From a virus (lineage: Duplodnaviria; Caudoviricetes): DNA of 64,000 nt. The position numbers and the translations under genes are program-made. Shown here piece after piece: positions 18,190 through 57,436 of the stretch. Numbering within the stretch: position 1 is the first letter of the stretch; the number at the start of each line of letters is the position of its first letter. The notes beneath the pieces were generated by a model that was not told where the DNA came from, made no database searches, and saw nothing but the letters and a program-made list of their open reading frames with translations. The stretch spans positions 48,519-112,518 of the IMG/VR virus record IMGVR_UViG_2863283106_000001; one strand, written 5' to 3'.

Positions 18190-18233
18190 GGGCGGAGAGC
18201 ACCGCCCGAACCACGAACCGAAGGAGCACCCCC
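18190..18233 (+). promoter_or_regulatory. AGAGCA-loop leader hairpin + CCACGAA + RBS (copy 1 of ~13)
   Basis: GGGCGG-AGAGCA-CCGCCC then CCACGAACCGAAGGAG. Confidence 0.75.
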
Positions 18234-18497
18234 GTGCGGAAGCTGCCCGGCAAGTTGAAGCTCGTCGCGTACGCCCTCGTTCTCCTGGCCCTCGCGCACC
18301 CGGGCGCCGTTCCGCCCGTGCTCGGTATCGCGCTCGCCATGGCGGGCGCCGTCATCGGCTGGGCCCTGGCGCACCTGTCGCTCGCCCTCACGCTTGCCGC
18401 CGGCGTTTTGCTGTTCCGGGCCTTCCCCGGCATCCCGCGCTGGTTCAGCCGCTCCTGGGACGCCTCGGTCGACTCCGTGCTCCCCGTCAAGGCGTAA
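18234..18497 (+). CDS. Small membrane protein
   Basis: Highly hydrophobic; RBS AAGGAG. Confidence 0.75.
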   Translation: MRKLPGKLKLVAYALVLLALAHPGAVPPVLGIALAMAGAVIGWALAHLSLALTLAAGVLLFRAFPGIPRWFSRSWDASVDSVLPVKA

Positions 18498-18632
18498 CAA
18501 CGGCTCTGTTCGAGCCGTTCGATTCTTCGCCCAGAACGATTCTCCGCTCACCCCCTCATGACCCCACGGACGCCCGTTGTGGCGCCGACCGGTGGAGAGC
18601 AACCGCCGGAAGTCCAAACGAAGGAGCCCTCT

Positions 18633-19013
18633 GTGGCCACCGTTGAAATCGTCAGCTTCGGCTACTTGCACGGTCAGGCCCCGGAAGCCGATGTGACCCT
18701 CGACCTGCGGCGGGCCTTCCGAGACCCGCACGTCGACCCGCGCATGCGAGAGCTGACCGGCTACGACCGACTCGTACGCCGGAAGGTCCTGAACACCGCT
18801 GGAGTCCGTCAGCTCTTGAAGGCCACAACCAGGCAGGTGCAGGCGTACGCGGCGGGTCCGAACGTCGAGCACATCGTCATCGGTTCGGGATGTGCGGGCG
18901 GACGTCACAGGTCGGTGGTTGTTGCCGAGAAGCTGGCCCGTCGGCTCCGGCGCCGCGGTCACACCGTCACCGTCACCCACCGAGACATCCGCCGGGCAGT
19001 CGTCCAGCGCTGA
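18633..19013 (+). CDS. Stand-alone RapZ C-terminal-like (RNA-binding) domain
   Basis: IVSFGYLHG, DLRRAFRDP, LTGYD, GCAGGRHRSV; preceded by leader hairpin 18589-18609. Confidence 0.82.
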   Translation: MATVEIVSFGYLHGQAPEADVTLDLRRAFRDPHVDPRMRELTGYDRLVRRKVLNTAGVRQLLKATTRQVQAYAAGPNVEHIVIGSGCAGGRHRSVVVAEKLARRLRRRGHTVTVTHRDIRRAVVQR

Positions 19014-19067
19014 CCAGCACCCACCGGCGGAGAGCAACCGCCTGCACCCGAAGAGAGGAACACCCCG

Positions 19068-19979
19068 ATGCGACGACGCGTCGTCACCACCCTGATCCCT
19101 CAGCCCGACCCCGAGCCGGCGTACCCCGAGTACGAAGACGTCCGACGCGAGGCCCGCCGCCGCAAAGGGCCGTTCGTCAACCTGGCCGACACCGACCGCT
19201 GGACGGAGGTTGCCCGCCGCCGGGGCGGCGACTGGTGCGCCGCGGTGCTGGGCAAGGGCTTCCCCGGCGCCTACGCCCTATCCACCGTGGACGGCTGGAT
19301 GCTGATCGTCGCTGACGAGCGCGGCCTGAACCCGCCGCTGCCGGCCCGCATCGTCGAGGACCGCAGGCACGCGCAGGAGGCGAAGGAGCTGCGCGAGAAG
19401 CAGGTCAGGGAGCGCCAGGAGCGGGAGATGCGCCGCTGGCAGGCGGCCCTGGCCGCGGCCGGCGTCGAGATGACCGTCCGGGAGAACACCCGGCACACCG
19501 GTGTGGGCGGATCGCTGCGGCACGCGGTACCGAAGGAGGAGCTGGTCTCTGGCCAGTCCCGCAAGCACCTCGCCGACCGCGGCCTGTGCGAGACGCCCGA
19601 CCGGGCGAACCCGCTGCACCTGGGCGAGCCGGTCAACGCCCCGGCCAACTGCCGCCGCTGCCTCGCCTACATGGAGAAGGTCCGCACCCTCGACGCCCCC
19701 GCCCCGCCCACCGCGGCAGAACGGAAGCTGCTGCAGGTCATCGCCTCCGGCGTCGTCTTCACCATGACGCACGCCCGTTGCGCCCCGACGATCCGCGTCA
19801 CCACCGAACCGAGCCGAGGGCGCGCCGGCGCGCTGGGCCGGAGCGTCGATGCCGCGGTGAAGAGGCTGCAGGCGAAGGGCTGGACGGCCAAGGACGCGGA
19901 GCGCAGCGCGACGCAAACGGGTCACTCCGGCCACCGTTGGCGGCTCACCGAAGCCGGTACCGCCGCACTGGAGGGCTGA
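19068..19979 (+). CDS. Hypothetical protein, possible C-terminal winged helix
   Basis: Leader hairpin 19026-19042 and RBS; C-terminal RWRLTEAG. Confidence 0.7.
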   Translation: MRRRVVTTLIPQPDPEPAYPEYEDVRREARRRKGPFVNLADTDRWTEVARRRGGDWCAAVLGKGFPGAYALSTVDGWMLIVADERGLNPPLPARIVEDRRHAQEAKELREKQVRERQEREMRRWQAALAAAGVEMTVRENTRHTGVGGSLRHAVPKEELVSGQSRKHLADRGLCETPDRANPLHLGEPVNAPANCRRCLAYMEKVRTLDAPAPPTAAERKLLQVIASGVVFTMTHARCAPTIRVTTEPSRGRAGALGRSVDAAVKRLQAKGWTAKDAERSATQTGHSGHRWRLTEAGTAALEG

Positions 19980-19983
19980 CCCT

Positions 19984-24280: not shown

Positions 24281-24381
24281 CCACAGAACTCAGCACCACA
24301 GCGCGATAACCGAACACTGGCGTCATGGCCAACCCCCGGCGGAGAGCAACCGTCGGAACCACGAAGTGAAGGAACACCCCG

Positions 24382-24438
24382 ATGCCCTCGCGTACCGCAG
24401 CCCTTGTCCGTCCGTCCGCGTCTCTTCTGTCGAGGTGA
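24382..24438 (+). CDS. 18-aa leader ORF (MPSRTAALVRPSASLLSR) upstream of traB
   Basis: Follows leader hairpin 24336-24356 and RBS GAAGGA; its stop overlaps the traB RBS GAGGTG. Confidence 0.4.
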   Translation: MPSRTAALVRPSASLLSR

Positions 24439-24444
24439 CGTGAC

Positions 24445-32884: not shown

Positions 32885-32906
32885 GAATGGTACACCCGAG
32901 TAAATC
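32885..32906 (-). promoter_or_regulatory. ATTTAC-N3-GGTGTAC(T/C)ATT class promoter/operator
   Basis: GATTTACTCGGGTGTACCATTC; 8 related copies in the window. Confidence 0.65.
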
Positions 32907-40665: not shown

Positions 40666-41988
40666 TCAGGCGGCCGGGGTGTAGTCGTCGGTGCTGTGGA
40701 CCAGTTCATTCATGCGGTAGAGCTGGCAGAGGTAGTCAGTGGCCAGCGTCTCTCCGTCGACGTTGAAGAACTGGGCGAGCAGCCGCGCTGCCATGAGCGG
40801 GGGGACGACGTCGGCGAGCTGCTGGAACACGCTCGTGCGGGAGCCTTGCGAGGGGTAGGAGGCGCGGAAGCCGACGAGGAGTGCGGCTTCGTTCTGGGTG
40901 AGGCGCAGGCCGTCAGAGACTCGCTTCCAGGTGCGGGCCTTGCCGGTGAGGCAGTTGGAGGGGCGATCGGCGGAGAACTCGTTGCCGCCCTTGGGGCGGC
41001 CGGTCTTCGGGTCGATGCCGCGCACGCCACGGGTGTTGATCTTCTCGCCCTCCTTCCAGCCAAGGGCCTGCGCCATCGTGGTCTGGGGGACGTTCTCGGT
41101 GGGCGTGGGCAGGTACGACAGGCGGCGGGAGGCGAGGAAGAACACCCGCTCGCGGCGAGAGGCGAGCCCGAACTGGGAGGCTTCGAGGATGCCGTGGGTG
41201 GTCCAGTACCACTCTCCCTCTTCCTGGCCGCCGCGCAGCTCTAGGCGGATGTCGTCGAGGATCTGCTGCGGCAGTCGGCTGGACTGCTCCATTGCGATGA
41301 ACTCCAGCGGCGCGCCCGCTGCCTGCATGCCGAACGCCCAGAACAGGAGTTCCGCCATGAGGCCGATGCGGGGGTCGGTGAGCGGGGCGAGTTGGGCGCG
41401 CAGTTCGTCCCAGGTGACGCCGGAGCGCGGGGCGTAGCCGTCGTGGTAGCCGAGTTCGTCGCAGGTGTCGCAGCCTTCGCACCAGTCATCCAGCTCGTTA
41501 CCGGGAAGGAATCCGCCCGCCTCGGAGGTCTGGGCGAGCACGCGGCACAGGGTGTTGATGTTGGCCTGGTCCTGCCCGGAGTGCTTCCCGGCAGGGGAGA
41601 AGGAGGGGCACGGCGGGGAGACGATCAGGCCGCGGACGTGGCGCAGGGCGTAGTGCTCGGGGTCCAGGGTGGTGATGTCGGCGCAGATGCGGAAGTGCCC
41701 GGCGGCGCGGGCGGTGGCGCACGCGTCCTTGGAGATGTCGATGCCGACGGCGTCCACGGCGACGCCGAGAACCTTCGCGATGCCCTCGGACCAGCCCCCC
41801 GGGCCGGCGAACAGCTCCACCACGCGGATCGGGTCGCCGGGCAGCGGGTCGAGCAGCCAGCGGCCGGGGAAGGGGTCGGCGGCCGCGTCCAGGACGGCGA
41901 GGACCTTCGGGGGGATGGGCAGACCGGCCTTGCGGGCGAGGGTGGCGACGTGGACGGCGGTTGCGACCGCGGGGGGCAGGGTCCGCAT
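40666..41988 (-). CDS. DNA (cytosine-5) methyltransferase
   Basis: ELFAGPGG (I), SPPCPSFS (IV), MEQ (VI variant), SRRERVF (VIII), QQLADVVPP (X); no cognate restriction gene seen. Confidence 0.9.
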   Translation of the reverse strand: MRTLPPAVATAVHVATLARKAGLPIPPKVLAVLDAAADPFPGRWLLDPLPGDPIRVVELFAGPGGWSEGIAKVLGVAVDAVGIDISKDACATARAAGHFRICADITTLDPEHYALRHVRGLIVSPPCPSFSPAGKHSGQDQANINTLCRVLAQTSEAGGFLPGNELDDWCEGCDTCDELGYHDGYAPRSGVTWDELRAQLAPLTDPRIGLMAELLFWAFGMQAAGAPLEFIAMEQSSRLPQQILDDIRLELRGGQEEGEWYWTTHGILEASQFGLASRRERVFFLASRRLSYLPTPTENVPQTTMAQALGWKEGEKINTRGVRGIDPKTGRPKGGNEFSADRPSNCLTGKARTWKRVSDGLRLTQNEAALLVGFRASYPSQGSRTSVFQQLADVVPPLMAARLLAQFFNVDGETLATDYLCQLYRMNELVHSTDDYTPAA

Positions 41989-42062
41989 CTGGTGTTCCTC
42001 TCTTCGTGGTCCGCGCCGGTGGTGCTCTCCACCGACACCACGAATAGTACACCCAGGTAAAT
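41989..42062 (-). promoter_or_regulatory. ATTTACCTGGGTGTACTATT promoter + AGAGCA leader hairpin
   Basis: GTCGGTGG-AGAGCA-CCACCGGC then CCACGAAGAGAGGA. Confidence 0.78.
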
Positions 42063-43703: not shown

Positions 43704-44531
43704 TCAGACCAGGAGCGCGGCGACGGACAGCAGCAGGTCGGTGCCGATGGCGGAGAACTCGGCGACGACTCGGGTGGTGTCGTCCGCGGTCGCGTCCGGC
43801 GTGGGCTTTTCCGGGCGGGCGATGTACCCGGGGACGTCCCCGAGGCGGCCGAACTCGAGCTCGTCGACTCCCAGGGGCCGAAGCTGCGGGAACCGGGCCG
43901 TCAGATGCCGCGTGAGCGTGCCTTCGGCGTCCTGGGGGGCGTGCCCGTCGGCGGGGGGCAGCAGGACCGGCAGAACGGCGTACAGGCCGTGCACGGGCCC
44001 GTCGTAGGTGAGGGTGAGCTGACCGGCCAGGCCGTACACGGACAGGCCCCACTTCCCGCCGGCGGTGCCCTCCCACTCCAGGGCGGGCCCGGTCAGCGTG
44101 TCCTCGACGGCCGGGTGCGCGCCGTGGTCGATCAGCTCGAACCCGACTTCCGACAGGTCCGCGGCCTTCGCGGTGACGACTCCCTGCCACCCGTTCTCGT
44201 GGTGGACGCGGGCCGCGGCCTCCCTCTCCAGGCGGGGCAGCACGGTACGCAGGATCCGTCCGGCGAGCGTGGCGACGGGGTGCGGGGCGTCCTGGGCGAC
44301 GACGACGTCCGGGGTCACGGGGAACATGTCGGCGTCGTCGACGAACACCTCGATGCGGCCGCCGCTTTCGGCGATGATCAGCGCGCGGTGCCCGTTGGTG
44401 AGCCGGGACGTCGCGGCGTGGGGCCGGACGCAGTACGGGGCGGGGGTGACCTTCCACGCTTCACCGCGGCGGGCGGGCAGGAGAGCGGCGAGCGGCGCCG
44501 CGGTGGCGGCGTGGGCGATGGCAGTGATCAC
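43704..44531 (-). CDS. Hypothetical protein, paralog of 42778-43632
   Basis: As above; leader hairpin 44561-44583. Confidence 0.75.
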   Translation of the reverse strand: MITAIAHAATAAPLAALLPARRGEAWKVTPAPYCVRPHAATSRLTNGHRALIIAESGGRIEVFVDDADMFPVTPDVVVAQDAPHPVATLAGRILRTVLPRLEREAAARVHHENGWQGVVTAKAADLSEVGFELIDHGAHPAVEDTLTGPALEWEGTAGGKWGLSVYGLAGQLTLTYDGPVHGLYAVLPVLLPPADGHAPQDAEGTLTRHLTARFPQLRPLGVDELEFGRLGDVPGYIARPEKPTPDATADDTTRVVAEFSAIGTDLLLSVAALLV

Positions 44532-44734
44532 AGGGGGCGGTCCTTCGGTTCGTGGTCGGTCCGGCGCGGTGCTCTCCGGCCGGGCAAGGTGGCCATGCGG
44601 GTAGTGCTTGCGTCACGCCCCGGGGCGGCTCGAGGTCGTCCAGGCCCCGGGGCGCGACAGCCGAAAGCCGGCTCTCTCACCGGGTAGTACGCCGAACAGG
44701 CGCGCCTTGTGACGCGCCTGTTCGGCGTGGGGCC

Positions 44735-45686: not shown

Positions 45687-46133
45687 TCAGGCGGCGGCGC
45701 GGGCGGGGGCCGGGCGGCCGAGGGCGAGCGCGGCGAGGAACGCGGCCACCTCGTCGTTCTTCGGCCGGTACCCGGTCAGGGCGACGGCGCGGATGTCCTC
45801 GCGGGTCCACAGGGCGGCGGGGACGACGCGGTGCCGCTTCTTGCGGGCGAGGTCGCCGGTGCGGGCGACGGTCAGGCCCTTCTTGCCCTTGCGCTTCTTC
45901 GTGGTGGTGCCCGCGCCCGGGATGCGGTCGGCGGCCTTCGCCTTCTTCGTGATGGTGGCCGCGTAGTTGTGGGCGACCAGCGGGGTGACGCCACCGGCGA
46001 TGAGGTGGGCGGAGGTGGCCGCGGGGCCGGCGTTCACGGCCTTCACGGCGGCGCGGATCTCGCGGGCGGTACGGGCGCGGTCGCGGAGTGCGGCGCGGCG
46101 GGGGTCGACCTTGTGGGTACGGGCAGAAGCCAT
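45687..46133 (-). CDS. Very basic Lys/Arg-rich protein (possible nucleic-acid binder)
   Basis: KKRKGKK, RKKRHR; promoter + leader hairpin 46134-46204. Confidence 0.75.
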   Translation of the reverse strand: MASARTHKVDPRRAALRDRARTAREIRAAVKAVNAGPAATSAHLIAGGVTPLVAHNYAATITKKAKAADRIPGAGTTTKKRKGKKGLTVARTGDLARKKRHRVVPAALWTREDIRAVALTGYRPKNDEVAAFLAALALGRPAPARAAA

Positions 46134-46204
46134 GGGGTGCTCCTCGGTTCGTGGTCGTTGGCGGTGCTCTCCACCAACACCACGAATAGTACACCCTCAC
46201 GAAT
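46134..46204 (-). promoter_or_regulatory. GGGTGTACTATT promoter + AGAGCA leader hairpin
   Basis: ATTCGTGAGGGTGTACTATTCGTGGT-GTTGGTGG-AGAGCA-CCGCCAAC-GACCACGAACCGAGGAG. Confidence 0.78.
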
Positions 46205-47141: not shown

Positions 47142-47693
47142 TCACGGCTCGTTGCGCTGGACCCACTGGGTGTCAAGCTCGAACAGGGCTGCGGCGAACG
47201 CGTCCGTGCCCGGGGTGGCGTCCAGGCGGGCGAGCTGCTCGCGGCCGCTGGGGACGGCGTGGGTGACTCCATCGGTGTCGGTGTAGGCGTACGCCTCGCG
47301 GGCCGCTACGGTCGCGCACAGCTCGGCGTACTCGATCTCTCCGCGGCACTCGTCCGGCACGCCGAGCGCGTCCGCCTGTCCGTCGACCCATCCGTCATGC
47401 CACGCGACCGTGCCCGGGTCGCTGCCGTCGCCGACGGCGTTCGAGTAGGTGGGGACCTTGCTGTCACCCAGGGCGGCCACGCCCGCCTTCCAGCCGGCGT
47501 TGTAGGCGGTCACCAGCGGCTCCTCGGTGGCCGTGGCGGAGACGCTGGGGCGGGGCGCGGGGGCCGCGGTGGTGTCGGTGCCCGGGGTGGCGCCCAGGGC
47601 GGCCGCGGTGCCCAGGATGACGGTCGCCAGTCCGGCGGTGATGATCGCGGCCGGGCGGGGCCGGCGGGTGAAGAAGCGGCGGACGTTGCGCAT
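47142..47693 (-). CDS. Secreted or membrane-anchored hypothetical protein
   Basis: Basic N-terminus + hydrophobic signal; leader hairpin 47723-47745. Confidence 0.7.
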   Translation of the reverse strand: MRNVRRFFTRRPRPAAIITAGLATVILGTAAALGATPGTDTTAAPAPRPSVSATATEEPLVTAYNAGWKAGVAALGDSKVPTYSNAVGDGSDPGTVAWHDGWVDGQADALGVPDECRGEIEYAELCATVAAREAYAYTDTDGVTHAVPSGREQLARLDATPGTDAFAAALFELDTQWVQRNEP

Positions 47694-47838
47694 CGGGGTG
47701 TTCCTTCGGTTCGTGGTGGTGGGGCCCCGGTTGCTCTCCGGGGCCGGTAGGGCGGTGCGCCCTGCGCCTACGCCGGGCGGGCCGGCGCGGGGGCGGGGCG
47801 CACCGCCCGCCGGGTGTGGCGGGCGGTGCGGTGCGGGG

Positions 47839-48744
47839 TCAGAGGGTGACGATCTCGTGGGGGAGTTCGTCGGCGGAGATGTCGCCGAGGGCGTGCAGTT
47901 CCGCGCTGTCGGCGTCGCCCAGCGTGATGCGGGTGATGACGTGGTCGTCGCGGGTGGTGAACGCGGCGGTGAAGTCCTTGAGCGCGAGCGTCTGCAGCGC
48001 GGTGCGGGCGGCGGAGGGGGTGGCGGCGTTCATGCGGACGGTGATCGTGCCCGGGGCGCTCAGGGTGACGGTGCCGGGCACCGTGTCGTCGTCGGCCAGT
48101 TCGGCGCTCTCCGCGTCGTCGACGGTGACGTACCCGATGACGTGTCCGTCGCAGGTGGGGATCTCGACGTCGAAGTCCTCGAACTCGATCTCCTCGAGCG
48201 CTTCGCGGGCGCCGTCGGCGTCGCCGGCGTTCATGCGGATGGTGACGGTGCCGTCGACGCTCAGGATGACCGGCGCGCCGTGGGTGGCGATGACGTACTT
48301 GACCTCGTCGGTCAGCGCGGTGTCCTCCATCCCTTCAAGGGTGGGGTTGGCCATGCCCTGCAGCGTCATCCAGGGCTCCGCGGCGCCGCGCATTTCGATG
48401 GTCTCGAGGAACAGGGGCGCGGCGGTCTCTGCGTCCAGGACGGCGCCGTCGGCGAGGTTCCAGGCGTAGCCCATGCCGTGCACGTCGTCGTAGTGGTCGT
48501 GCACGGAGACGGCGACCACGGCCGGCCGGTTGTCGGCGATCACGGCGGTGAGCGCCTGCAGGAAGGCGGAGACGTCGGCGGGGGCGAAGTCCATCTCTCC
48601 GGACTGGAACATGCCGCGCACGGACCAGGACTCGTCAGCGGTGCGGAGGCGGATGTACATCTTCGCGTCGTCTTCAAAGACGCTGTTGAAGGCGCCGGCG
48701 AAGAGGGAAGCGGCGCGGGCCGCGGGGGTGAGGGTGGCGTTCAT
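47839..48744 (-). CDS. Acidic hypothetical protein with internal duplication
   Basis: GTVTIRMNA..A..AR.AL repeated; leader hairpin 48771-48788. Confidence 0.75.
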   Translation of the reverse strand: MNATLTPAARAASLFAGAFNSVFEDDAKMYIRLRTADESWSVRGMFQSGEMDFAPADVSAFLQALTAVIADNRPAVVAVSVHDHYDDVHGMGYAWNLADGAVLDAETAAPLFLETIEMRGAAEPWMTLQGMANPTLEGMEDTALTDEVKYVIATHGAPVILSVDGTVTIRMNAGDADGAREALEEIEFEDFDVEIPTCDGHVIGYVTVDDAESAELADDDTVPGTVTLSAPGTITVRMNAATPSAARTALQTLALKDFTAAFTTRDDHVITRITLGDADSAELHALGDISADELPHEIVTL

Positions 48745-49019
48745 GGGGTGTTCCTTCCGTTCGTGGTGGGCCCCGGCGCTCTCCAGGGCGGCGGGGTGAA
48801 CCGCTGAGGAGAACAGTACACCCTCATGAATGTTGCGCAACCCCTGATCTCTCAACTCTCTAGAAAATGCAGGTGAAGACCGGAATTCCTCGAGTCATTC
48901 CGACCCCCGTGATTTATCTGGGTTGCATATTCTGCCGGTACGGCTGTACGGTCAGGGCACGCCACAACGGCGGGCCGGGGCGAGCATCCCCAGCCGGACC
49001 ACGAACCGAGGAGCACCCG
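48745..49019. promoter_or_regulatory. Divergent control region with two promoters and two leader hairpins
   Basis: Minus GGGTGTACTGTT (48811-48832); plus GATTTATCTGGGTTGCATATT (48911-48931); gene orientation switches here. Confidence 0.65.
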
Positions 49020-50963
49020 ATGATCACTGCCACCGAGCGCGCCGAAGCGATGGCGCTGCAGGTCTTCATCTCCGCCCGACTGCACAACGACCGCGTCATC
49101 ACGCACGACCTGGTCGACGCCGTCATGTCCCGCGACGCCCTCAAGGAGCAGGGCAAGGCCAACAAGGAGACGGTCCGCCGCATCATCCGCAAGCGCGCCG
49201 CCTCGGAGCGCTGCCGCGTCATCTTCACCGACGAAGAGCGCTACTGGGCGATCCGCGAGCAGCTCCACCACATGAGCCGCGACGAGGTGCAGGCACTGCG
49301 CGACAGCATCGCCGACGGCGGCCACGACGACCCCCGCGGCTGGGACCGCGTCCTGAACGACGCGATCAGCGTGCGTCTGTCCAACCGCCCCGCCCCCCGC
49401 CGGCTGGACCACGCCGAGCCGGTCACCATCCGCCTGTGGAAGCAGCCGCGCCACCTGATGCCGTTTCCCGAGGACGTCGTCGACGCCCCGCACACCCTCT
49501 ACATCGACGGAGTGCCGCGCCGCGAGGGCATCCCCGCCGCACGCATCCGCACCATCGTGAACAACCGCCGCTTTGCGGGCCGGCCCGTCGAGCAGGACGC
49601 CACCGGCGCCATCATCTGCGACACCCGCCGCTACGCCCCCCAGCGGGCCGCCGAGGAGGTCCCCACCGTCCGGGAGCAGCAGCGCGAGGCGCTCGCCCGT
49701 ATCCAGGCCAAGGCCGACGCCCAGCGTGCCGAGCACCGCGCCGAGATGGACGACCGGATCGCCGCCGAGCACCAGGAGCACGGCGCGCCCGCCCCGGCCG
49801 CCGTTCAGGCCCGCATCGACGCCCGCACCCCCGACCGGACGCCCGCGCGCCGTGTGCTGGAGGGCCTGGTCGTCACCCACGACGGCACGGCCACCGGCAG
49901 CACCCCGAGCAACGCCGCGCACCCCAACGTCGTGGCCGCCCGTGCCGCTCTCGACAACATGGCCGCCGCGACCATGACGGAGCACCACGACGTGACCGAG
50001 CCGACCGGCGACGAGGTGAACGTGCGCGGGTACCTGGTCCAGCCGCGGGAAGGTGACCGGGTCGCTGTCTACTGGCTCGAGGGCGGCCGGATCGTCCGGC
50101 ACGACGACCCCGCCTTCGGCCCGTCCCTGGACTGCCTCTCGTACCGGCTCGAGTGCCGCGGCTGGACCGTGGAGCCGATGCTTCGGTCGTCCCTGTGCGT
50201 GTTCGCCCACCGTCCCGCCGAGGAGCAGCGCCCGGCCGTCGAGGCGCACCAGGACGTCGCCGCCGGCGGGGTCGCCGCCGAAGTCGGCCGCCGCGTGCTT
50301 GCCGAAGCCGGAGAGAGCCCGGCCGACTCCGCAACCCTGTTCGTCGCGCTCGCCGCGTACGAGTCCACCGTCCAGGCGCGTCTCACCATCAACGACGAGA
50401 GCCTCACCCTGGTTGCCCGCCACCTGCTGGAGTTCTCGGCGGACCATGCGCAGCACGCCCAGATCATGGCCGCGTACCGGGCCGTCGATGACGCCCGGAG
50501 CGCCTTGGAGGACGCGACCGGCCTCACCGCCCGCGCCGAGGCCAGGAAGGCGGCCATTGCCGCTGTCGAGCAGGCCCGTACGGTCATCCTCTCCGTCGCC
50601 CCGCGCGCGCACCGGATGCACGGCACCGACATGCCCGCCACGGCACCCGACATCCGCGCGGCCGCCCTGGCGTACAACGCCGTTGAAAGCACGCGTGAGG
50701 AGCTGTCCGCCATCGTGACCGGCACCCCCAAGGTCCGCGTCCACTGCGCCAGCGACTCCGGTACCGGCTGGAGCATCACCGCCACCATCACGGCCGGGGT
50801 CGACACCCCCCAGGGGATGTTCATCCCTGCGCACCCGCCCCTCGTCGTGAAGTTCCCCCGCCGGGACGGACGGGAAGACGCGGCTGTCAACACCCACCGG
50901 GTTATCAGCTCCCGATTCCTCGTCGGTGTCCCCGTCGAGTACGTCACCGACCGCCGGCCCTGA
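49020..50963 (+). CDS. Large multidomain hypothetical protein
   Basis: RBS GAGGAG after leader; good high-GC codon pattern. Confidence 0.8.
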   Translation: MITATERAEAMALQVFISARLHNDRVITHDLVDAVMSRDALKEQGKANKETVRRIIRKRAASERCRVIFTDEERYWAIREQLHHMSRDEVQALRDSIADGGHDDPRGWDRVLNDAISVRLSNRPAPRRLDHAEPVTIRLWKQPRHLMPFPEDVVDAPHTLYIDGVPRREGIPAARIRTIVNNRRFAGRPVEQDATGAIICDTRRYAPQRAAEEVPTVREQQREALARIQAKADAQRAEHRAEMDDRIAAEHQEHGAPAPAAVQARIDARTPDRTPARRVLEGLVVTHDGTATGSTPSNAAHPNVVAARAALDNMAAATMTEHHDVTEPTGDEVNVRGYLVQPREGDRVAVYWLEGGRIVRHDDPAFGPSLDCLSYRLECRGWTVEPMLRSSLCVFAHRPAEEQRPAVEAHQDVAAGGVAAEVGRRVLAEAGESPADSATLFVALAAYESTVQARLTINDESLTLVARHLLEFSADHAQHAQIMAAYRAVDDARSALEDATGLTARAEARKAAIAAVEQARTVILSVAPRAHRMHGTDMPATAPDIRAAALAYNAVESTREELSAIVTGTPKVRVHCASDSGTGWSITATITAGVDTPQGMFIPAHPPLVVKFPRRDGREDAAVNTHRVISSRFLVGVPVEYVTDRRP

Positions 50964-51491: not shown

Positions 51492-51686
51492 CTCGGCCCC
51501 GCCGTGAGCGACTGGAACGGCAACCCCGGGTGAGCGTGTCCATCCGTCCCATGCGAGTCAAACGTGTCTCCATCTGCGGAAATCCTGGCCAGCCTCGCCG
51601 TTCTCCCCCTGGATATTCTCTAGGGTGTATCATTCCAAGCGTTGGCGGAGAGCGCCGCCGACGACCACGAAGAGAGGACCCCGCGC

Positions 51687-52706
51687 ATGAGCGCGCACGT
51701 CGAGATCCCCCGCCCGCACGAGACGGCCCCCGGCCGGTTCACCGCCGATCTGGCGTTCCCCGACCCGTCCAAGCGCAGGGCGCAGCAGCACCACGACGTC
51801 GCTTGGGCCCTGGCCCAGGTCCACGGCCTGGACGCGTCGACGCCGTACAAGGTCAACCGCCGCTGGTCCATCTACGAGGAGCAGTGGGGCAACGGGGAGC
51901 GGAACGGGTGGTTGGACATGCGCCGGCTGTGTGTCGACGGGCCCGCCCGGGAGCTCGCCCGGTACCTGGTCGCGCTGGAGCGGGTCCTGGACGAGGTGGA
52001 GGCCCTGGCGACGCGCGCGGTGCGTGTGTTCGGCCAGTGGAAGCGGTCCGTGGCCGCTGAGCCGCACCTGGCGTACGAGGACGCGTCCACGATGCGCACC
52101 CGGGTCCGGGAGTTCCGCGCGGGCGTCCTGCGGTCCCTGGTGGCCGGTCTGGGCGCCCCCCGGCCGGCCGCGGTCGAGCGGGACAGCTCCCGGCCGCTGT
52201 GGGAGCAGAGCCGGGCGGTCGCCGAGGAGGTGCGGGCCGCCGCGGGCGGGGTCGACCTCGAACGGGCCGACGACAGCGCGGTGACGGCCCTCATGGCGCG
52301 GATGGTGCCCGCAGCGGTCGCCGAGGCGGAGCGCCTGGCCGCCCTCGAGGCCGCCCGGGTGGAGGCGGAGCGCCTGGAGGCGGAGCGGGTGGAGCTGTTC
52401 CGGCAGGTCGACGCGGCGTGCGCGCGGGAGGCCGACGAGGCGGACGCCGAGCGGTACGCGCGGGACGGGCAGGGGGCGCTGTTCCCCGTGTCGGAGGCCC
52501 GGCCGGCGCTGGTGGTGCCCCCGCCCATGCCGGTGAAGCCGCGCCGCGCGCCCCGTAGGCGCGTGCCCGTGGCGGCCCGGTTCCCGGAGGGGACCACGAA
52601 CGTCGTGATCAGCCGAGAGCAGGTGGAGCACTTCAATCCGGGCATGGCGGCCGCCATCTGGCCGGAGGTGAGCGCGGACCGCCAGCGGTACGCCCCCGCG
52701 GCCTGA
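51687..52706 (+). CDS. Hypothetical protein with QGALF motif
   Basis: Promoter 51614-51635 and hairpin 51641-51662 upstream. Confidence 0.75.
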   Translation: MSAHVEIPRPHETAPGRFTADLAFPDPSKRRAQQHHDVAWALAQVHGLDASTPYKVNRRWSIYEEQWGNGERNGWLDMRRLCVDGPARELARYLVALERVLDEVEALATRAVRVFGQWKRSVAAEPHLAYEDASTMRTRVREFRAGVLRSLVAGLGAPRPAAVERDSSRPLWEQSRAVAEEVRAAAGGVDLERADDSAVTALMARMVPAAVAEAERLAALEAARVEAERLEAERVELFRQVDAACAREADEADAERYARDGQGALFPVSEARPALVVPPPMPVKPRRAPRRRVPVAARFPEGTTNVVISREQVEHFNPGMAAAIWPEVSADRQRYAPAA

Positions 52707-52808: not shown

Positions 52809-52880
52809 GATTTACCTGGGTGTACTATTCTCTGTGTTGGCGGGAGAGCAACCCGCCACACCACGAAGGAGGAGCACCCC
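52809..52880 (+). promoter_or_regulatory. ATTTACCTGGGTGTACTATT promoter + AGAGCAA leader hairpin
   Basis: TGGCGGG-AGAGCAA-CCCGCCA then CCACGAAGGAGGAG. Confidence 0.78.
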
Positions 52881-53306
52881 GTGAACGCTGCCCCGACCAT
52901 CAAGGCCCTGGCCGAGCTCACCGAGCAGTACGGGCCGATGCGCACCGTCCTGCACCACCTGGGCCTTACCGACGTGCCCGCGGAGCAGGACCAGGCGTAC
53001 ATGTTCAACATCCTCAGCGGCGACGAGCTGCGCGAGTCGGTCATCAAGGCCGACGACGGCAGCGCGGACCTGGTCATCCGGTTCATCGAGTACATCGACC
53101 CGGTCACCCAGCGCCGCCGGTTCGCCGTCGACTACTGGTCCATCAACGCCTACTGGGCCACCGACCACGAGCACCGCGCCGTCGCCGAGAAGGCGTACGA
53201 GGACGCCGTGCGCACCGAGTTCGCCCGCCCGACGCTGCGCCTCTCCCGGGCGCGGTTCGAGCGGGGCCTGGCGAGCTTCTACGACCGCACCGACGTCCAG
53301 CCGTAG
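52881..53306 (+). CDS. Hypothetical protein
   Basis: GTG after GGAGGAG. Confidence 0.75.
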   Translation: MNAAPTIKALAELTEQYGPMRTVLHHLGLTDVPAEQDQAYMFNILSGDELRESVIKADDGSADLVIRFIEYIDPVTQRRRFAVDYWSINAYWATDHEHRAVAEKAYEDAVRTEFARPTLRLSRARFERGLASFYDRTDVQP

Positions 53307-53398: not shown

Positions 53399-54379
53399 AT
53401 GGCCACGAAGACCGGCATCGACACCGTCCCCACCGACTACCAGGCCCGCTTGTTGCTCGCCGCGCTCGCCGACCCCCAGCACCGCATCCCGTCCGATGCC
53501 AGGGGCCGCACGCTTGACATCATGCTGAGCCGCCAGTGGATCCGCCCCCGCCGGCTGACGTCGTCCCTGGCGTTCGTCAAGTCGGGTGTGCGCGACTGGG
53601 TCCTTACCCACCACGGCGTCAACGCCGCGAACAAGGTGAAGGCCGCCCAGGGCAGCGGGCCCGAGAAGCGCACACGGGTCGTCGACGTCGAGGGCATCGG
53701 CTGGACCTGCGAGAGGCCGGGGCGCAAGTGGACCGCGGAGTACGAGGGCGTGAAGTTCGAGCTCGAGCGCCGCACCCGCAACGTGGCCGACGGGTGCCCG
53801 GACACCGGTTGGTACCTGTACGGCGGTAGCCACTTCGGCGAATACATGGCCGCTGGCTTCAAGGAGGCCGCCACCGCGGCGTTCCCGTATGTCTGCCCGA
53901 AGGAAGGCCACCCGCAGCCGGCCGCCGAGGTGCAGGCGCTCGCCGAGCGGTTCCCGGCCGGTTCCCCGGCCATCTACGTGCCCGAGGGCTCCACGGAGCG
54001 GGACGTCGTCGTCGTGAACTCCGGGCCCGACCAGGACGGCACCGTCGAGGTGCTCAGCATGCAGCAGGGCGGCAAGGCGCTCCGTGTCCCGCTCGCCGCG
54101 CTGGAGGAACTGCCCGAGCTGCCCCCGGAGCCCGAGGGTGAGATCACCGACTGGTGGACGATCACGGACGCCCAGGGCGCGGAGCTCACCCGCGTACAGG
54201 CCGAGGACGACCCCCGGGCGCGGAAGGCAGCCATGCGGCACGCGGCGGTCGTCGCGGCGGTCCGCCGGGACAAGGGGTTCGCCGTGCGCCGTCTGCGCAC
54301 CTCGGAACTGTCCGTCCCCGTCGGAGAGCTGCGCGGAGTGCCCCGCTTCCCCCCGGCCCCGGCCGTCCAAAGCGTCTGA
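53399..54379 (+). CDS. Multidomain hypothetical protein
   Basis: RBS GAGGAG. Confidence 0.75.
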   Translation: MATKTGIDTVPTDYQARLLLAALADPQHRIPSDARGRTLDIMLSRQWIRPRRLTSSLAFVKSGVRDWVLTHHGVNAANKVKAAQGSGPEKRTRVVDVEGIGWTCERPGRKWTAEYEGVKFELERRTRNVADGCPDTGWYLYGGSHFGEYMAAGFKEAATAAFPYVCPKEGHPQPAAEVQALAERFPAGSPAIYVPEGSTERDVVVVNSGPDQDGTVEVLSMQQGGKALRVPLAALEELPELPPEPEGEITDWWTITDAQGAELTRVQAEDDPRARKAAMRHAAVVAAVRRDKGFAVRRLRTSELSVPVGELRGVPRFPPAPAVQSV

Positions 54380-54469
54380 CCGCCCCTCCGGCCGGGGCGC
54401 GTCCCCACCGCGCCCCGGGCCCGCATCCGCCCCTCTCCGCCCGCCCTACGCCCCCTTGAGGACCACGCC

Positions 54470-54913
54470 ATGCAGACCATCGCCCTGTTCGACTTCCCCG
54501 CCGCCCTGGCCCCCGTGCGGCCGCGCGTCCCGCTCGCGTTGGGAGAGATGCCCGTCTCGAGCGTTCCGGCCGCGTACGACCGTGGGCACCTCTACAGCCC
54601 GAAGGAGGGCACGGCCGAGCGGGTCGACCACCGGCCCGGCGACCGGTTCGCGCCGCTCCCGAAGGCCCCGCACGAGCCGAAGGCGTGGGGCACCTGGTGG
54701 AGGGCCGAGGCGAACGCGCCCACGCCGGATTACCTGGGGCTGGAGCCCGGCGACGTGATCACCCTCGTGGACGACGTCACCGCGACCGTCGTTTCCACCT
54801 GTCGGTTCGGCGCGGTCGTCCGGTACGAGGTGCCGCCGTCGCCGTGGGCCGCCGAGACGCACGTGGACATGTACGTGACCGCGCGAAACCAGTTCGGCCA
54901 CTGGTACCGCTGA
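54470..54913 (+). CDS. Hypothetical protein beginning MQTIALFD
   Basis: RBS GAGGA. Confidence 0.7.
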   Translation: MQTIALFDFPAALAPVRPRVPLALGEMPVSSVPAAYDRGHLYSPKEGTAERVDHRPGDRFAPLPKAPHEPKAWGTWWRAEANAPTPDYLGLEPGDVITLVDDVTATVVSTCRFGAVVRYEVPPSPWAAETHVDMYVTARNQFGHWYR

Positions 54914-54963
54914 CCGCCGCCCGCCCCTCCCTGTCCGCTCCACGCCCCTCGAGGACGCCCGCC

Positions 54964-56145
54964 ATGCAGACCGCCGCCTTGTTCGACCTTCCCGCCATCG
55001 AGACGCCCGCCCAGGGCCGCCCCACCTTGAAGGTGAAGGGCCGGTTCGCGCGCCGGTCCGCCCCTGTGGAACAGCTCGTCGTCCAGGCCGCGCCCGCGGC
55101 CGCCGCGCCGGCGAAGCCGAAGCGGAAGCGGTCCCCGCGCAAGGTGCACGCGTCCGTGCCCCTCGAGCCGTCGACAACCGTGCCGGATGAGCTGATCCGC
55201 AACGCCGACTGGGTTGTTATCTCGAGCTCGGGTGGTAAGGACTCGCAGGCGATGCTGTCGCACGTCGTCGAGCGTGCGCGGGCCCTGGGGATGCTGGGCA
55301 AGGTCGTCGTTGTTCATGCGGACCTGGGTCGGGTCGAGTGGGGCGGCACGCTCGAGCTGGCGGCCGCACAGGCGCGGCTCGCCGGGGTCCGCCGGTTCGA
55401 GGTGGTCCGGGCGCAGGGCGCCGATCTCCTCGACCGGGTCGAGATCAGGTACGGCAAGCTCAAGGCGAAGGCGGAACAGGAAGCCATCGAGCGGGGCGAG
55501 GACCCGGCCGCGGTGACGGTTCCGCCGGCGTGGCCGTCGAGTTCCGCGCGCTGGTGCACCCCAGACGCGAAGCGGGGCCCGATCCGGACTCTCTACACGC
55601 GGCTTGTCGCGGAGCTCGCGCACCTGGGCCGGCCCGTGCGGATCCTGGAGTGCATCGGGCAGCGGGCCGCGGAGAGCACTCAGCGGGCGAAGCTCGCCGA
55701 GGTGGAGATCAACCGCGGGGCGAGCAACGGCAAGCGACACGTCACCACGTGGCGGCCTATCCACGGCTGGAGTGACGCCGCCGTGTGGCAGGAGATCGGC
55801 CGGTCCGGTCTGCCGTACCACTCGGCTTATGACTGGGGAAATCGGCGTTTGAGCTGTGTGTTCTGTGTCCTTGGGTGCAACAGCGACTTGGTGAACGGTG
55901 CGCGCCGGATGCCGGAGCTCGCCGCGGCCTACGCTGCGACCGAAGTGAAGGTCGGGGCCGACTTCAAGAAGGGTTTGTCCATGCGGGAGATCATCCGCCG
56001 CGCCCAGGTCCTGGAGGCGGAGGAGGGGCCCGCCAAGTGGCCGCCGGCGGGGACGGAGCTGTCCAAGTACGTCGGCAAGCGCAAGACGGCCGCGTACCTC
56101 GCCCGCGTGGACGAGCTGCGCACGCGCTACGACCTCACCGCCTGA
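54964..56145 (+). CDS. Phosphoadenosine-phosphosulfate (PAPS) reductase-family protein
   Basis: PP-loop SSSGGKDS, RWCT...K..P, GQRAAES..RA, RPI..W, RLSCVFC. Confidence 0.85.
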   Translation: MQTAALFDLPAIETPAQGRPTLKVKGRFARRSAPVEQLVVQAAPAAAAPAKPKRKRSPRKVHASVPLEPSTTVPDELIRNADWVVISSSGGKDSQAMLSHVVERARALGMLGKVVVVHADLGRVEWGGTLELAAAQARLAGVRRFEVVRAQGADLLDRVEIRYGKLKAKAEQEAIERGEDPAAVTVPPAWPSSSARWCTPDAKRGPIRTLYTRLVAELAHLGRPVRILECIGQRAAESTQRAKLAEVEINRGASNGKRHVTTWRPIHGWSDAAVWQEIGRSGLPYHSAYDWGNRRLSCVFCVLGCNSDLVNGARRMPELAAAYAATEVKVGADFKKGLSMREIIRRAQVLEAEEGPAKWPPAGTELSKYVGKRKTAAYLARVDELRTRYDLTA

Positions 56146-56268
56146 TCTGCACCACGCCCGCGCTGGGCCCGTCCCGGCGCGGGCCGACGAGCCGCGCTTC
56201 GGCGCCCGCCTGTCAGTGACAGATGGCAGGCTGACCACCGTCCGACCCTCCCGAGAAGGACCCACACC

Positions 56269-56676
56269 ATGCCCTCGTTCGACACCCTCGCCCACGCCAA
56301 CGGACTACGGGAAGCGCTGGACCAGCTCGACGTCTGGTTGGCCCGCGAGCGGGAGACCGCGCTGGACGCCACGCTGCCCGTCGAGGAGCGGGTGAGCGCC
56401 GGTGTCGCGTACTCCGAGCTGGTGCACACCCTGCGCGTCCACCTGGGCGCCGCTCGGGACGCCCTGCCGGTCCTGGAGACCCGCCAGGCGTACAGCCCGG
56501 TTGCGGCCACCGGCCCGGAGCGGTCGCCGGAGGCCGCGCGGCTGTGGGCTGCGGCGGCCGCCGCGGAGTCGGCCGCCGCCGTCCTGAGCGCCGTACTGCA
56601 GATGCTGCCCCTCGACGGTGGCAGGGTCCGCGACCGGGCCGCGCTCGAGGACCCGCATATGGACCTGGGTGACTGA
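56269..56676 (+). CDS. Hypothetical helical protein
   Basis: RBS GAAGGA. Confidence 0.7.
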   Translation: MPSFDTLAHANGLREALDQLDVWLARERETALDATLPVEERVSAGVAYSELVHTLRVHLGAARDALPVLETRQAYSPVAATGPERSPEAARLWAAAAAAESAAAVLSAVLQMLPLDGGRVRDRAALEDPHMDLGD

Positions 56677-56699
56677 CCGGCCGGACGGGAGAGACGACG

Positions 56700-57284
56700 A
56701 TGCCCGAAGAACAGCGCCAGGGGCTCGAGGAGCAGCCGGAGGCGGTGCGCGCCCTGGTGGGCCGGACCATCACGGTGACGGAGGCCTTGACGGGGATTCC
56801 GAACAGCCGGCCCTACCTGCTCCGCGTGGAGGAAGCCAAGCTCACCACCGTGGAGGGCTCCGACACCGTATGGGCGACCGGTGACCGGCTGCGCATGGAC
56901 GGCACGCCTGCGCGCCGCAAGCGTGGGAACCGGTGCACGGTCGCGTTGCTGGGCGGGTGGACGGAGGTCCTCGGTTTGCCCGCGCTGCCGCCGCGCGAGT
57001 GGCGCATGCGGGCGGTGGGCCTCACGCAGTACGCCGAGCGGGCCCGCCGGTACATCGCCCTGACGGAGATTGACCAACTCGGCACTTACCGGCATGCCGT
57101 CGTCGGTCCGGACGGCGGCGAGGAGGTGATCCAGGTCCTCAGCGGGGACGAGGTGGTCGACCTGGTGGCCGATGTCCTACGGCACGACGGGGTGACGCTC
57201 GAGCGGCACCGGGACGATGTCACCCTGCGGCTGCGCTACGCCGACGGCCGGCCTGCGGTGTTTTTGGGCCCGGTGAACACGTAG
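56700..57284 (+). CDS. Hypothetical protein
   Basis: RBS GGAGAG. Confidence 0.7.
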   Translation: MPEEQRQGLEEQPEAVRALVGRTITVTEALTGIPNSRPYLLRVEEAKLTTVEGSDTVWATGDRLRMDGTPARRKRGNRCTVALLGGWTEVLGLPALPPREWRMRAVGLTQYAERARRYIALTEIDQLGTYRHAVVGPDGGEEVIQVLSGDEVVDLVADVLRHDGVTLERHRDDVTLRLRYADGRPAVFLGPVNT

Positions 57285-57362
57285 CCGAGCGGCCGGAGCG
57301 TGTGGCGGGGATCGTCCTGGTGGATGGTCCCCGCTTCTGTTTCTGCATTCCCCTACCCCAGA

Positions 57363-57436
57363 AATTTACATGGGTGTACTATTCGGGGTGTTGGTGGAGA
57401 GCAACCACCGACGGACCACAAAGCGAGGAAACCCTT
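57363..57436 (+). promoter_or_regulatory. ATTTACATGGGTGTACTATT promoter + AGAGCAA leader hairpin
   Basis: GTTGGTGG-AGAGCAA-CCACCGAC then CCACAAAGCGAGGA. Confidence 0.78.

What the first reader, a model, noticed from the sequence alone, without database searches (positions are those of the whole stretch)
18190..57412. Family of ~13 structured 5' leaders: covarying stem, AGAGC(A/G)(A) loop, then CCACGAA and RBS
Seen: hairpins at 18190, 18589, 19026, 24336, 48973, 51641, 52838 and 57390 on the + strand, and at 42015, 44561, 46157, 47723 and 48771 on the - strand. Each sits ~25-40 nt before a start codon. Stem sequences differ but stay paired (GGCCCCGG/CCGGGGCC, GTTGGTGG/CCGCCAAC, TGGCGGG/CCCGCCA, with G-U pairs), while the loop is nearly invariant (one CGAGCAT variant). 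A CCACGAA box usually precedes the RBS. Where a TACTAT -10 is present, the hairpin usually starts ~7-10 nt downstream, at the likely transcript 5' end. At 42015 and 46157 the upstream TTCGTGGT can also pair with the downstream ACCACGAA. Inference: an element-wide cis-regulatory RNA (boxB/nut-like antitermination site, translational activator or RNase-protection signal) controlling the early/accessory regulon, including the methyltransferase and traB. I do not recognise it as a known Rfam family.
Basis: partly seen in the sequence, partly recalled or inferred. Interest (0 to 1): 0.88.

Follow-up and report, generated by a model that had tools for sequence, protein, structure and literature searches.

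The report
Repeated leader RNA hairpin, Streptomyces phage-plasmid
A large Streptomyces phage that can also live as a plasmid puts the same small RNA hairpin (fixed tip, freely changing stem) and a fixed ribosome-binding stretch in front of about fourteen non-virion genes; the tag is in no RNA catalogue and what reads it is still unknown.

Summary
All 13 hairpins exist at the stated places. A covariance model built from 8 copies finds exactly these 13 in the window at E<=0.003; the next window hit has E=0.019.

The stems covary strongly: 99.1% of cells pair against 71.3% in shuffles, and 0 of 500 shuffles reach this. The loop core GAGCA is kept in 50 of 53 distinct hairpins.

The window is the last 64 kb of a 112.5-kb provirus record related to Streptomyces phage Gilgamesh. 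Relatives carry 15-20 copies each. In five host genomes 51 of 56 hits lie on the phage-like contig.

Rfam has no match.

At the conserved phage promoter the hairpin starts 4-10 nt after the -10 in 22 of 30 copies. It ends about 30 nt before a start codon, mostly ATG.

Function is not shown. My best guess is a per-gene post-transcriptional tag read by an element-encoded factor. A new lead is a conserved, very basic, arginine-rich early protein. A nut-like antitermination reading remains open.

This scan found the same motif before on three other genomes.

The parts
18190..18236 (+). Leader copy 1: hairpin GGGCGG-AGAGCA-CCGCCC, CCACGAA box, SD, GTG of an 87-aa membrane-like protein. It has its own TATCGT -10 nine nt upstream.
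   Evidence: (E 8.7e-15)
18589..18635 (+). Leader copy 2: 7-bp hairpin with AGAGCAA loop and a degenerate box, then GTG of a 126-aa RapZ C-terminal-domain protein.
19026..19070 (+). Leader copy 3: 5-bp hairpin with AGAGCAA loop and ACCCGAA box, then ATG of a 303-aa basic protein. It starts 12 nt after the upstream stop codon.
24336..24384 (+). Leader copy 4: 7-bp hairpin, CCACGAA, then ATG of an 18-codon upstream ORF (24382-24438) that ends 6 nt before the FtsK/TraB-like gene (24445-26484).
48973..49022 (+). Leader copy 5: variant loop CGAGCAT, 8-bp stem with one mismatch, CCACGAA, ATG of a 647-aa protein. The variant loop is kept in the orthologous copies.
51640..51689 (+). Leader copy 6: 9-bp hairpin with AGAGCG loop, CCACGAA, ATG of a 339-aa protein. 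Promoter motif lies at 51623-51635.
52838..52883 (+). Leader copy 7: 7-bp hairpin with AGAGCAA loop, CCACGAA, GTG of a 141-aa protein. Promoter motif lies at 52818-52830.
57389..57439 (+). Leader copy 8: 9-bp hairpin with AGAGCAA loop, CCACAAA, ATG of a 252-aa acidic protein. Promoter motif lies at 57372-57384.
48742..48789 (-). Leader copy 9: 7-bp hairpin with AGAGCG loop, CCACGAA, ATG of a 301-aa acidic protein. Promoter motif lies at 48811-48823; the stem starts 23 nt after the -10.
47691..47745 (-). Leader copy 10: 8-bp hairpin GGCCCCGG-AGAGCAA-CCGGGGCC, CCACGAA, ATG of a 183-aa protein. No promoter motif; a 13-bp GC-rich hairpin lies upstream.
46131..46179 (-). Leader copy 11: 9-bp hairpin with AGAGCA loop, CCACGAA, ATG of the 148-aa arginine-rich basic protein. 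Promoter motif lies at 46184-46196.
44529..44583 (-). Leader copy 12: 8-bp hairpin with a 1-nt bulge and AGAGCA loop, CCACGAA, GTG of a 275-aa protein. An 18-bp GC-rich hairpin lies upstream.
41986..42038 (-). Leader copy 13: 10-bp hairpin with AGAGCA loop, CCACGAA, ATG of a C5 DNA cytosine methyltransferase. Promoter motif lies at 42042-42054.
45687..46133 (-). Candidate reader (inference only): a 148-aa protein, pI 11.8, 21.6% Arg+Lys, with an arginine-rich N-terminus. Small, very basic proteins of like build sit at the same place in Gilgamesh, G001 and G003.
32885..32897 (-). Eighth copy of the promoter motif in the record (1 mismatch). It is followed by a different 5' hairpin, not the AGAGCA one. 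This is the one exception per genome.

Best explanation
This is an element-specific family of mRNA leaders that acts at the RNA level, one gene at a time.

Each unit has four pieces. First comes a 5-11-bp hairpin whose stem sequence is free but whose tip is fixed (core GAGCA). Then comes a nearly U-free, unstructured linker carrying the box ACC(A)CGAA. Then come a Shine-Dalgarno sequence and, mostly, an ATG.

[quoted passage not shown] Elsewhere it stands between genes, just after a GC-rich terminator-like hairpin.

The mechanism I think most likely is as follows. The hairpin protects the 5' end and shows a fixed loop. The loop, together with the box next to the ribosome-binding site, is bound by a factor encoded by the element. 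That factor sets translation and/or stability of about 14 non-virion genes together.

A candidate reader is the small arginine-rich basic protein at 45687-46133(-), whose own mRNA carries the tag.

Shown here: the structure, its strand, its positions, its restriction to the element, and its absence from Rfam. Inferred: the transcript starts, the existence of a reader, its identity, and the effect on expression.
For: Structure. On 69 model hits, 99.1% of cells pair against 71.3% in shuffles (0 of 500 reach this), 67 cells change on both sides, and slid controls give 37-60%. In my own count of 53 distinct hairpins, pairs 3-7 are canonical in 243 of 265 cells against 134 +/- 8 for shuffled partners. 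Between grouped copies, 53 of 57 changes keep the pair.

RNA sense strand. There are 27 G-U pairs against 6 A-C mismatches.

Fixed tip. GAGCA is kept in 50 of 53 and GAGCG in 3 of 53.

Tie to the gene start. Loop end to start codon is 30-33 nt in 42 of 61 copies, the start is ATG in 52 of 61, and the linker has 34 T in 1647 positions.

Per-gene placement. Three neighbouring genes (18234, 18633, 19068) each have their own copy within 900 nt.

Tie to the 5' end. Of 30 promoter-motif copies in five genomes, 26 are followed by the hairpin: 4-10 nt after the -10 in 22, and 23 nt in 4. In the one copy where the hairpin and the SD are about 130 nt apart, the hairpin stays at the promoter, and a box-like ACC(A)CGGAA sits in a second loop near the SD.

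A reader is likely element-encoded. Of 56 hits in five host genomes, 51 lie on the phage-like contig. Host 16S has no 6-8-nt complement to the loop or the box. One relative (G003) has shifted most of its boxes together to CCAACGAA or CCAGCGAA.

Candidate protein. It is conserved in place, has pI about 12, is among the two most basic ORFs called in three of four genomes, and is found only in this element clade (27 protein clusters, all Streptomyces).
Against: No transcript, binding or expression data exist here, and no RNA run was listed. Transcript starts are guessed from -10 spacing only. No known RNA-binding domain was found in the core early proteins (Pfam, PHROGs and NCBIfam). The candidate protein's model has low confidence (pLDDT 44.8). 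Its two subfamilies are only weakly alignable (BLASTP E 8.2; hhalign E 0.0024 with probability 12%). It could equally bind DNA. Loop type does not track the protein subfamily. Folding energies are not unusual. Many strong GC-rich hairpins lie between the genes, which fits an antitermination reading as well.
Confidence: 0.4

Rival explanations
1. A nut-like processive antitermination site. The hairpin, with a GNR(N)A-type loop like boxB, loads an arginine-rich N-like protein (the 125-148-aa basic protein) onto RNA polymerase at the start of each early transcript. Polymerase can then read through the many GC-rich hairpins between genes.
For: The loop core GAGCA fits the GNR(N)A pattern of the boxB pentaloops bound by N peptides (pattern match only; passages of PMC12550061 read). 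In 22 of 30 promoter copies the hairpin starts 4-10 nt after the -10. GC-rich hairpins of 10-18 bp follow most early genes, in 11 intergenic regions. A small, very basic, arginine-rich and apparently disordered protein is the first gene behind one such promoter and hairpin, as N is behind nutL (the lambda layout is recalled).
Against: There are 13-20 sites per genome, with three within 900 nt. The distance to the start codon is tight and there is an ATG bias, which nut sites do not need. The linear box lies 3' of the hairpin and is absent from the host rrn leader that I read. No N-family hit was found in Pfam, PHROGs or NCBIfam. Canonical U-tail terminators are not enriched (5 found against 4.0 expected).
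Confidence: 0.2
2. A self-contained expression cassette with no dedicated reader. A 5' hairpin blocks 5'-end-dependent RNases and insulates the ribosome-binding site. An unstructured A/C-rich linker keeps the SD open. The fixed loop is kept for folding or for a general host component such as the ribosome.
For: The hairpin sits at the predicted 5' end. The linker is nearly U-free and is unpaired in the centroid folds. No reader was identified. That 5'-terminal stem-loops stabilise bacterial mRNA is established knowledge (recalled, not checked here).
Against: A purely structural cap does not explain an invariant GAGCA tip and a conserved box across more than 50 hairpins whose stems have changed completely. 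Nor does it explain the joint box change in G003. Host chromosomes do not use the motif. No complement was found in 16S.
Confidence: 0.2
3. An RNA processing punctuation. An endonuclease cuts in the C-rich spacer between the upstream GC-rich hairpin and the leader hairpin. This gives single-gene mRNAs with a 3' and a 5' protective hairpin, and the loop and box guide the cut.
For: Copies without the promoter motif lie downstream of strong GC-rich hairpins that start a few nt after the upstream stop codon. The motif is placed gene by gene.
Against: Stems of 5-11 bp are short for RNase III (recalled). No nuclease is conserved with the motif: the MazF/PemK-like gene is in G001 only and the RapZ-domain gene in this record only. 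Promoter-proximal copies need no cut.
Confidence: 0.12
4. A DNA-level site, such as an operator, a cruciform or a recombination cassette, with no RNA role.
For: The promoter-leader cassette is repeated. Similarity to Gilgamesh ends at window 57434, three bases before the 57437 start codon behind one cassette, so cassettes may mark mosaic joints.
Against: Stems covary while the loop is fixed, the opposite of a double-strand protein site. The G-U excess is strand-specific. All copies point toward the downstream gene.
Confidence: 0.03

Closest known systems
[quoted passage not shown]
   Same: Both are repeated 11-19 times per actinophage genome. Both are confined to non-structural genes, lie in one orientation, sit a few nt before start codons, include the SD, and show a strong ATG bias. 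In both cases the function is still unknown.
   Different: The SAS consensus GGGATAGGAGCCC is absent here (0 matches at up to 2 mismatches). ESAS arms are conserved in sequence, and the authors state that departures do not support RNA pairing, so they favour a DNA site. Here the stems are free in sequence and covary, and the loop is fixed.
Lambda-type nut sites (boxB hairpin plus boxA, read by N)
   Same: Both have a short hairpin with a fixed purine-rich loop that fits GNR(N)A, plus a linear box, early in phage transcripts. A small arginine-rich basic early protein is present.
   Different: The order of hairpin and box is reversed. There are 13-20 copies instead of two. The motif is tied to the ribosome-binding site. 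No homology to N or to the host boxA was shown.
Phage translational operators (T4 RegA regulon; T4 gp43 operator hairpin plus SD) (recalled)
   Same: Many early mRNAs share a site at or just upstream of the SD, and the gp43 operator is a hairpin plus a 3' single strand reaching the SD.
   Different: No RegA or gp43 homologue was looked for specifically. The RegA site is not a hairpin.
5'-terminal stabiliser stem-loops (ompA type) (recalled)
   Same: The hairpin lies within a few nt of the predicted transcript start.
   Different: Those have no conserved loop or box and do not form a multi-copy family.

Membership tests
Any Rfam 15 family | Match to a curated covariance model | tested here: not met
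   0 matches at gathering score over the whole window. Only two chance-level hits (a miRNA and a snoRNA) at E<=5 over 41000-58000.
Lambda-type nut (boxA/boxB/N) | boxB: a short hairpin with a GNRA-like pentaloop | tested here: inconclusive
   The core GAGCA fits GNR(N)A in 50 of 53 hairpins, but it is flanked by one or two extra A. The fold was not modelled; this is a pattern match against passages of PMC12550061.
Lambda-type nut (boxA/boxB/N) | boxA: a linear box 5' of boxB, related to the host rrn boxA | tested here: not met
   The box lies 3' of the hairpin. CCACGAA is absent from the 237-nt rrn leader of a host genome printed.
Lambda-type nut (boxA/boxB/N) | A small arginine-rich N protein encoded just downstream of a nut site | tested here: inconclusive
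   A 125-148-aa protein of pI about 12 stands behind a promoter and hairpin in four genomes. It has no family hit and a low-confidence model.
Lambda-type nut (boxA/boxB/N) | Few sites per genome, placed per operon and not tied to start codons | tested here: not met
   There are 14 full copies in this record. Loop end to start codon is 30-33 nt in 42 of 61 copies.
SAS/ESAS of cluster K mycobacteriophages | The 13-bp consensus GGGATAGGAGCCC before start codons | tested here: not met
   0 matches at up to 2 mismatches.
SAS/ESAS of cluster K mycobacteriophages | ESAS: 17-bp inverted repeats conserved in sequence, without compensatory change | tested here: not met
   Here the arms vary and covary. 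The ESAS property is taken from passages of PMC3203893; its supplements were not seen.
SAS/ESAS of cluster K mycobacteriophages | Multi-copy, one orientation, non-structural genes, ATG bias | tested here: met
   gene functions.
5'-terminal stabiliser hairpin | Hairpin within a few unpaired nt of the true 5' end | not testable with these tools
   Only -10 spacing is available. No RNA run was listed.

The most novel reading that the evidence does not exclude
The hairpins are boxB-like sites and the conserved 125-148-aa arginine-rich protein is an N-like RNA-binding factor. This would be an N/nut-type system in actinobacterial phages. It would be multiplied to 13-20 sites and fused to ribosome-binding sites, so that one protein couples read-through of the many hairpins between genes with translation of each early gene.
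Probability: 0.15. Interest if true: 0.85.

Novelty: new variant of a known kind. Interest (0 to 1): 0.62.

Why it matters
The motif marks a whole regulon of mostly unknown early and accessory genes in a clade of ~110-130-kb Streptomyces phage-plasmids. In a sample of 151 Streptomyces genomes, 3 held six or more hits.

It is a clean, strongly covarying RNA motif that is missing from Rfam. It shows a different solution from the SAS/ESAS repeats of mycobacteriophages, whose function has stayed open since 2011.

Finding its reader would show how these phages coordinate early expression. It could also give a compact, portable 5' leader for gene expression in Streptomyces.

Tried and rejected
rRNA pairing. 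Host 16S has no 6-8-nt complement to the loop, the box or the spacer. 23S has two TTCGTGG words and an unpaired GGTAGAGCAC stretch. I judged these irrelevant to initiation.

RapZ C-terminal-domain protein (18633-19010) as reader. It is present only in this record among the five genomes compared, so I rejected it.

MazF/PemK-like nuclease as reader. It is present in G001 only, so I rejected it.

Arginine-rich protein. tblastn against phages found nothing. The Atlas gave only unnamed clusters. The AlphaFold model had pLDDT 44.8, so I made no fold search.

TTCGTGGT/ACCACGAA extended pairing. It is not conserved in orthologues.

An sRNA partner. I searched no genome for one: CCACGAA was searched only in the window, where I read only the 13884-13950 cluster and judged it coding by eye without translating it; words complementary to the loop were not searched in the element.

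Loose pattern GGAGAGCA-N7-15-CCACGAA in viral contigs.

RNA runs. No RNA holder was listed, so no reads were laid.

Literature. Searches for 'Streptomyces phage' with 'Gilgamesh' (0 papers), and for 'Streptomyces phage', 'stem-loop', 'intergenic' and 'conserved motif' (15 of 443 listed, none relevant by title) found no description of this motif. Supplements of PMC3203893 and PMC12699233 were not seen.

Sigma-70 consensus scan. It found 0 promoters in 38600-58500, so the promoter class is read from the repeated motif only.


Full report
WHAT THE WINDOW IS. The window is bases 48519-112518 of a single 112,518-bp virus record. IMG/VR classes the record as a provirus, 87% complete. It has 71% G+C. 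Over 40-58 kb it is about 80% identical, across half of the query, to Streptomyces phage Gilgamesh (MN234216, 129 kb). Gilgamesh is annotated with virion genes, ParA and ParB, an FtsK-like translocase, integrases and a sigma factor. A related 125-kb circular plasmid of S. zaomyceticus (NZ_CP107934.1) matches as well. The element is therefore a Gilgamesh-like phage-plasmid.

THE OBSERVATION. All 13 reported sites hold a hairpin on the strand of the downstream gene.
- Eleven have perfect stems of 5-10 bp. 48973(+) has one mismatch and 44583(-) has a one-base bulge.
- The loops are AGAGCA, AGAGCAA or AGAGCG, with CGAGCAT at 48973.
- CCACGAA follows in 11 of 13. The word occurs 22 times in the window against 7.3 expected.
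- The bare loop word is not enriched.

I built a covariance model (R1) from 8 copies, 4 from the window and 4 from Gilgamesh. It finds the 13 sites at E<=0.003 and no other place in the window below E=0.019.

The full record has one more complete copy at record position 8646, and a hairpin-only copy at 3685. Both lie outside the window.

IT IS AN RNA STRUCTURE.
- On the 69 model hits from five genomes, 99.1% of cells pair against 71.3% after shuffling. No shuffle of 500 reaches this, 67 cells change on both sides, and sliding the partner gives 37-60%.
- That alignment was fitted to the model, so I also counted without it. In 53 distinct hairpins anchored on the loop, pairs 3-7 are canonical in 243 of 265 cells against 134 +/- 8 for shuffled partners, with a maximum of 165 in 2000 shuffles. 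Only the first three pairs had been required by my filter.
- Between grouped copies of different genomes, 53 of 57 changes keep pairing. A few of those groups are probably paralogues rather than orthologues.
- G-U pairs (27) far outnumber A-C mismatches (6). This points to the sense strand as the folded one.
- Folding energies are not unusual for this G+C content (z from -2.4 to +1.7), although the hairpin is in every minimum-energy and centroid fold.

ANATOMY.
- The invariant part of the loop is GAGCA (50 of 53 hairpins) or GAGCG (3 of 53). The closing pair is G-C in 52 of 53.
- From loop end to start codon is 30-33 nt in 42 of 61 copies.
- The start codon is ATG in 52 of 61.
- The 27 positions before the start hold 34 T among 1647 letters.
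- The box is ACC(A)CGAA. One relative, G003, carries CCAACGAA or CCAGCGAA in most copies. This joint change suggests either a co-evolving partner or homogenisation among copies.

PROMOTERS AND 5' ENDS. A motif GGTGTAYYRT, often (A)TTTACCTGGGTGTACTATTC, occurs 30 times in the five genomes.
- In 26 of the 30 it is followed by the hairpin: 4-10 nt after the -10 in 22 cases, and 23 nt in one ortholog group of 4.
- The one exception per genome, at window 32885-32897(-), is followed by a different hairpin.
- If transcription starts about 7 nt after the -10 (an inference), the hairpin closes the extreme 5' end.
- Copy 18190 has a different -10 (TATCGT; TAGAGT in relatives) at a similar distance.
- The hairpin-only copy is informative. 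The hairpin stays at the promoter. About 120 nt of conserved leader follow, with an operator-like ACCTGGGCCTAGGT. A box-like word then sits in the loop of a second covarying hairpin close to the SD.

BETWEEN GENES. Copies without the promoter motif (47745, 44583, 24336, 18589, 19026) lie between co-directional genes. In the early region, 11 intergenic spaces hold a GC-rich hairpin of 10-18 bp, most of them starting a few nt after the upstream stop and followed by C-rich sequence. Terminators with a U tail are not enriched (5 found against 4.0 expected). Three neighbouring genes (18234, 18633, 19068) each carry their own copy.

DISTRIBUTION.
- Copies per element at E<=0.01: 20 in G001, 17 in G003, 4 in the fragment G002, 16 full-length in Gilgamesh, and 15 in plasmid NZ_CP107934.1.
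- The promoter-plus-hairpin pattern hits only Streptomyces contigs: 7 contigs of 6 genomes, mostly 106-132 kb. In the viral collection it hits 9 contigs.
- In five host genomes, 51 of 56 hits at E<=0.001 lie on the phage-like contig. Only 150 first-look candidates per genome were scored.
- In 151 Streptomyces genomes, 8 have a hit at E<=1e-5 and 3 have six or more. In one of these the hits cluster in the chromosome near 4.06 Mb.

GENES BEHIND THE LEADERS.
- Identified: a C5 DNA methyltransferase; an 18-codon upstream ORF coupled to an FtsK/TraB-like gene; a RapZ C-terminal-domain protein.
- The other ten have no Pfam hit, and none of the leader-gene proteins I put to PHROGs or NCBIfam got a named function: eight were scanned in each, only the 148-aa protein had a weak hit to a PHROG of unknown function, and the 87-aa protein was scanned against Pfam only.

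WHAT READS IT.
- No complement to the loop or box exists in host 16S.
- The RapZ-domain and MazF-like genes are each limited to a single genome.
- Pfam scans of 84 G001 proteins found no conserved RNA-binding domain.

One lead remains. The gene behind leader 46179 encodes a 148-aa protein of pI 11.8 with an arginine-rich N-terminus. Gilgamesh, G001 and G003 have 125-145-aa proteins of pI 12 at the same place.
- It is among the two most basic ORFs called in three of the four genomes; in G003 my caller truncated it and it ranked fifth.
- Its 27 database clusters are all from Streptomyces, mostly on 124-146-kb contigs.
- The two subfamilies align end to end only weakly (hhalign E 0.0024, probability 12%; BLASTP E 8.2).
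- The structure model is of low confidence.
- GAGCA fits the GNR(N)A pattern of the boxB loops bound by arginine-rich N peptides (passages of PMC12550061).

All of this is suggestive, not evidence of binding.

VERDICT. The per-gene placement and the fixed distance to the start codon make me favour a post-transcriptional tag acting on translation and/or stability, read by an element factor (0.4). I rank this over nut-like antitermination (0.2), a reader-free cassette (0.2) and processing punctuation (0.12).

COMPARISON WITH KNOWN SYSTEMS. SAS/ESAS of cluster K mycobacteriophages is the nearest described phenomenon. It differs in the defining point: ESAS arms do not covary, and the SAS consensus is absent here.

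PRIOR FINDS IN THIS SCAN. New here are:
- the separation seen in the hairpin-only copy;
- the joint box change in G003;
- the host-genome and genus surveys;
- the negative rRNA test;
- the arginine-rich protein lead.

Noticed in passing
window 18633-19010 (+): A 126-aa stand-alone RapZ C-terminal domain protein (Pfam PF22740, E 5e-30). Its nearest phage homologues, at about 50% identity, are annotated 'RNA binding protein' in Streptomyces phages YDN12, TP1604 and others. It is absent from Gilgamesh, G001, G002 and G003.
   Followed up: partly
window 24382-24447 (+): An 18-codon ORF (MPSRTAALVRPSASLLSR) owns leader copy 4. Its in-frame TGA lies 6 nt before the GTG of the FtsK/TraB-like gene. 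The peptide and the TGA are conserved in Gilgamesh and G001, which suggests translational coupling.
   Followed up: partly
record position 3668-3900 (outside the window; orthologues in Gilgamesh, G001, G002, G003): A promoter and AGAGCAA hairpin are followed by about 120 nt of highly conserved leader. The leader holds the near-palindrome ACCTGGGCCTAGGT and a second covarying hairpin. It stands before a gene that, by Gilgamesh's annotation (its gene 83), is followed by two HTH genes and an AAA-ATPase, and may be a master control region.
   Followed up: partly
window 32885-32950 (-): The same promoter motif (1 mismatch) is followed by a different nested 5' hairpin (GCGGCGGCATGGGGTTGCCCCAGTCGCCGC). 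It is conserved in all four complete relatives.
   Followed up: no
window 38800-60000, both early arms: Eleven intergenic regions carry a GC-rich hairpin of 10-18 bp, most of them starting a few nt after the stop codon and followed by a C-rich tail. Apart from 57304-57335, they lack a U tract.
   Followed up: partly
window 57434-57460 (+): Nucleotide similarity to Gilgamesh ends just before the start codon behind leader copy 8. The gene here encodes a 252-aa acidic protein with no Pfam hit. The corresponding leader precedes a gene with a Pfam DpdA hit in G001 and one annotated queuine tRNA-ribosyltransferase in Gilgamesh. Leader cassettes may therefore mark mosaic joints.
   Followed up: partly
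L152:15049-15363 (G001): A PemK/MazF-like toxin gene (Pfam E 7.6e-7) is present only in G001 among the five genomes.
   Followed up: yes
Gilgamesh gene 51 (L002 46895-47104): This gene in the virion module is annotated 'ribosome modulation factor'. Earlier notes of this scan report a second promoter class with leaderless virion genes. Together these hint at a switch in translation mode between early and late genes.
   Followed up: no
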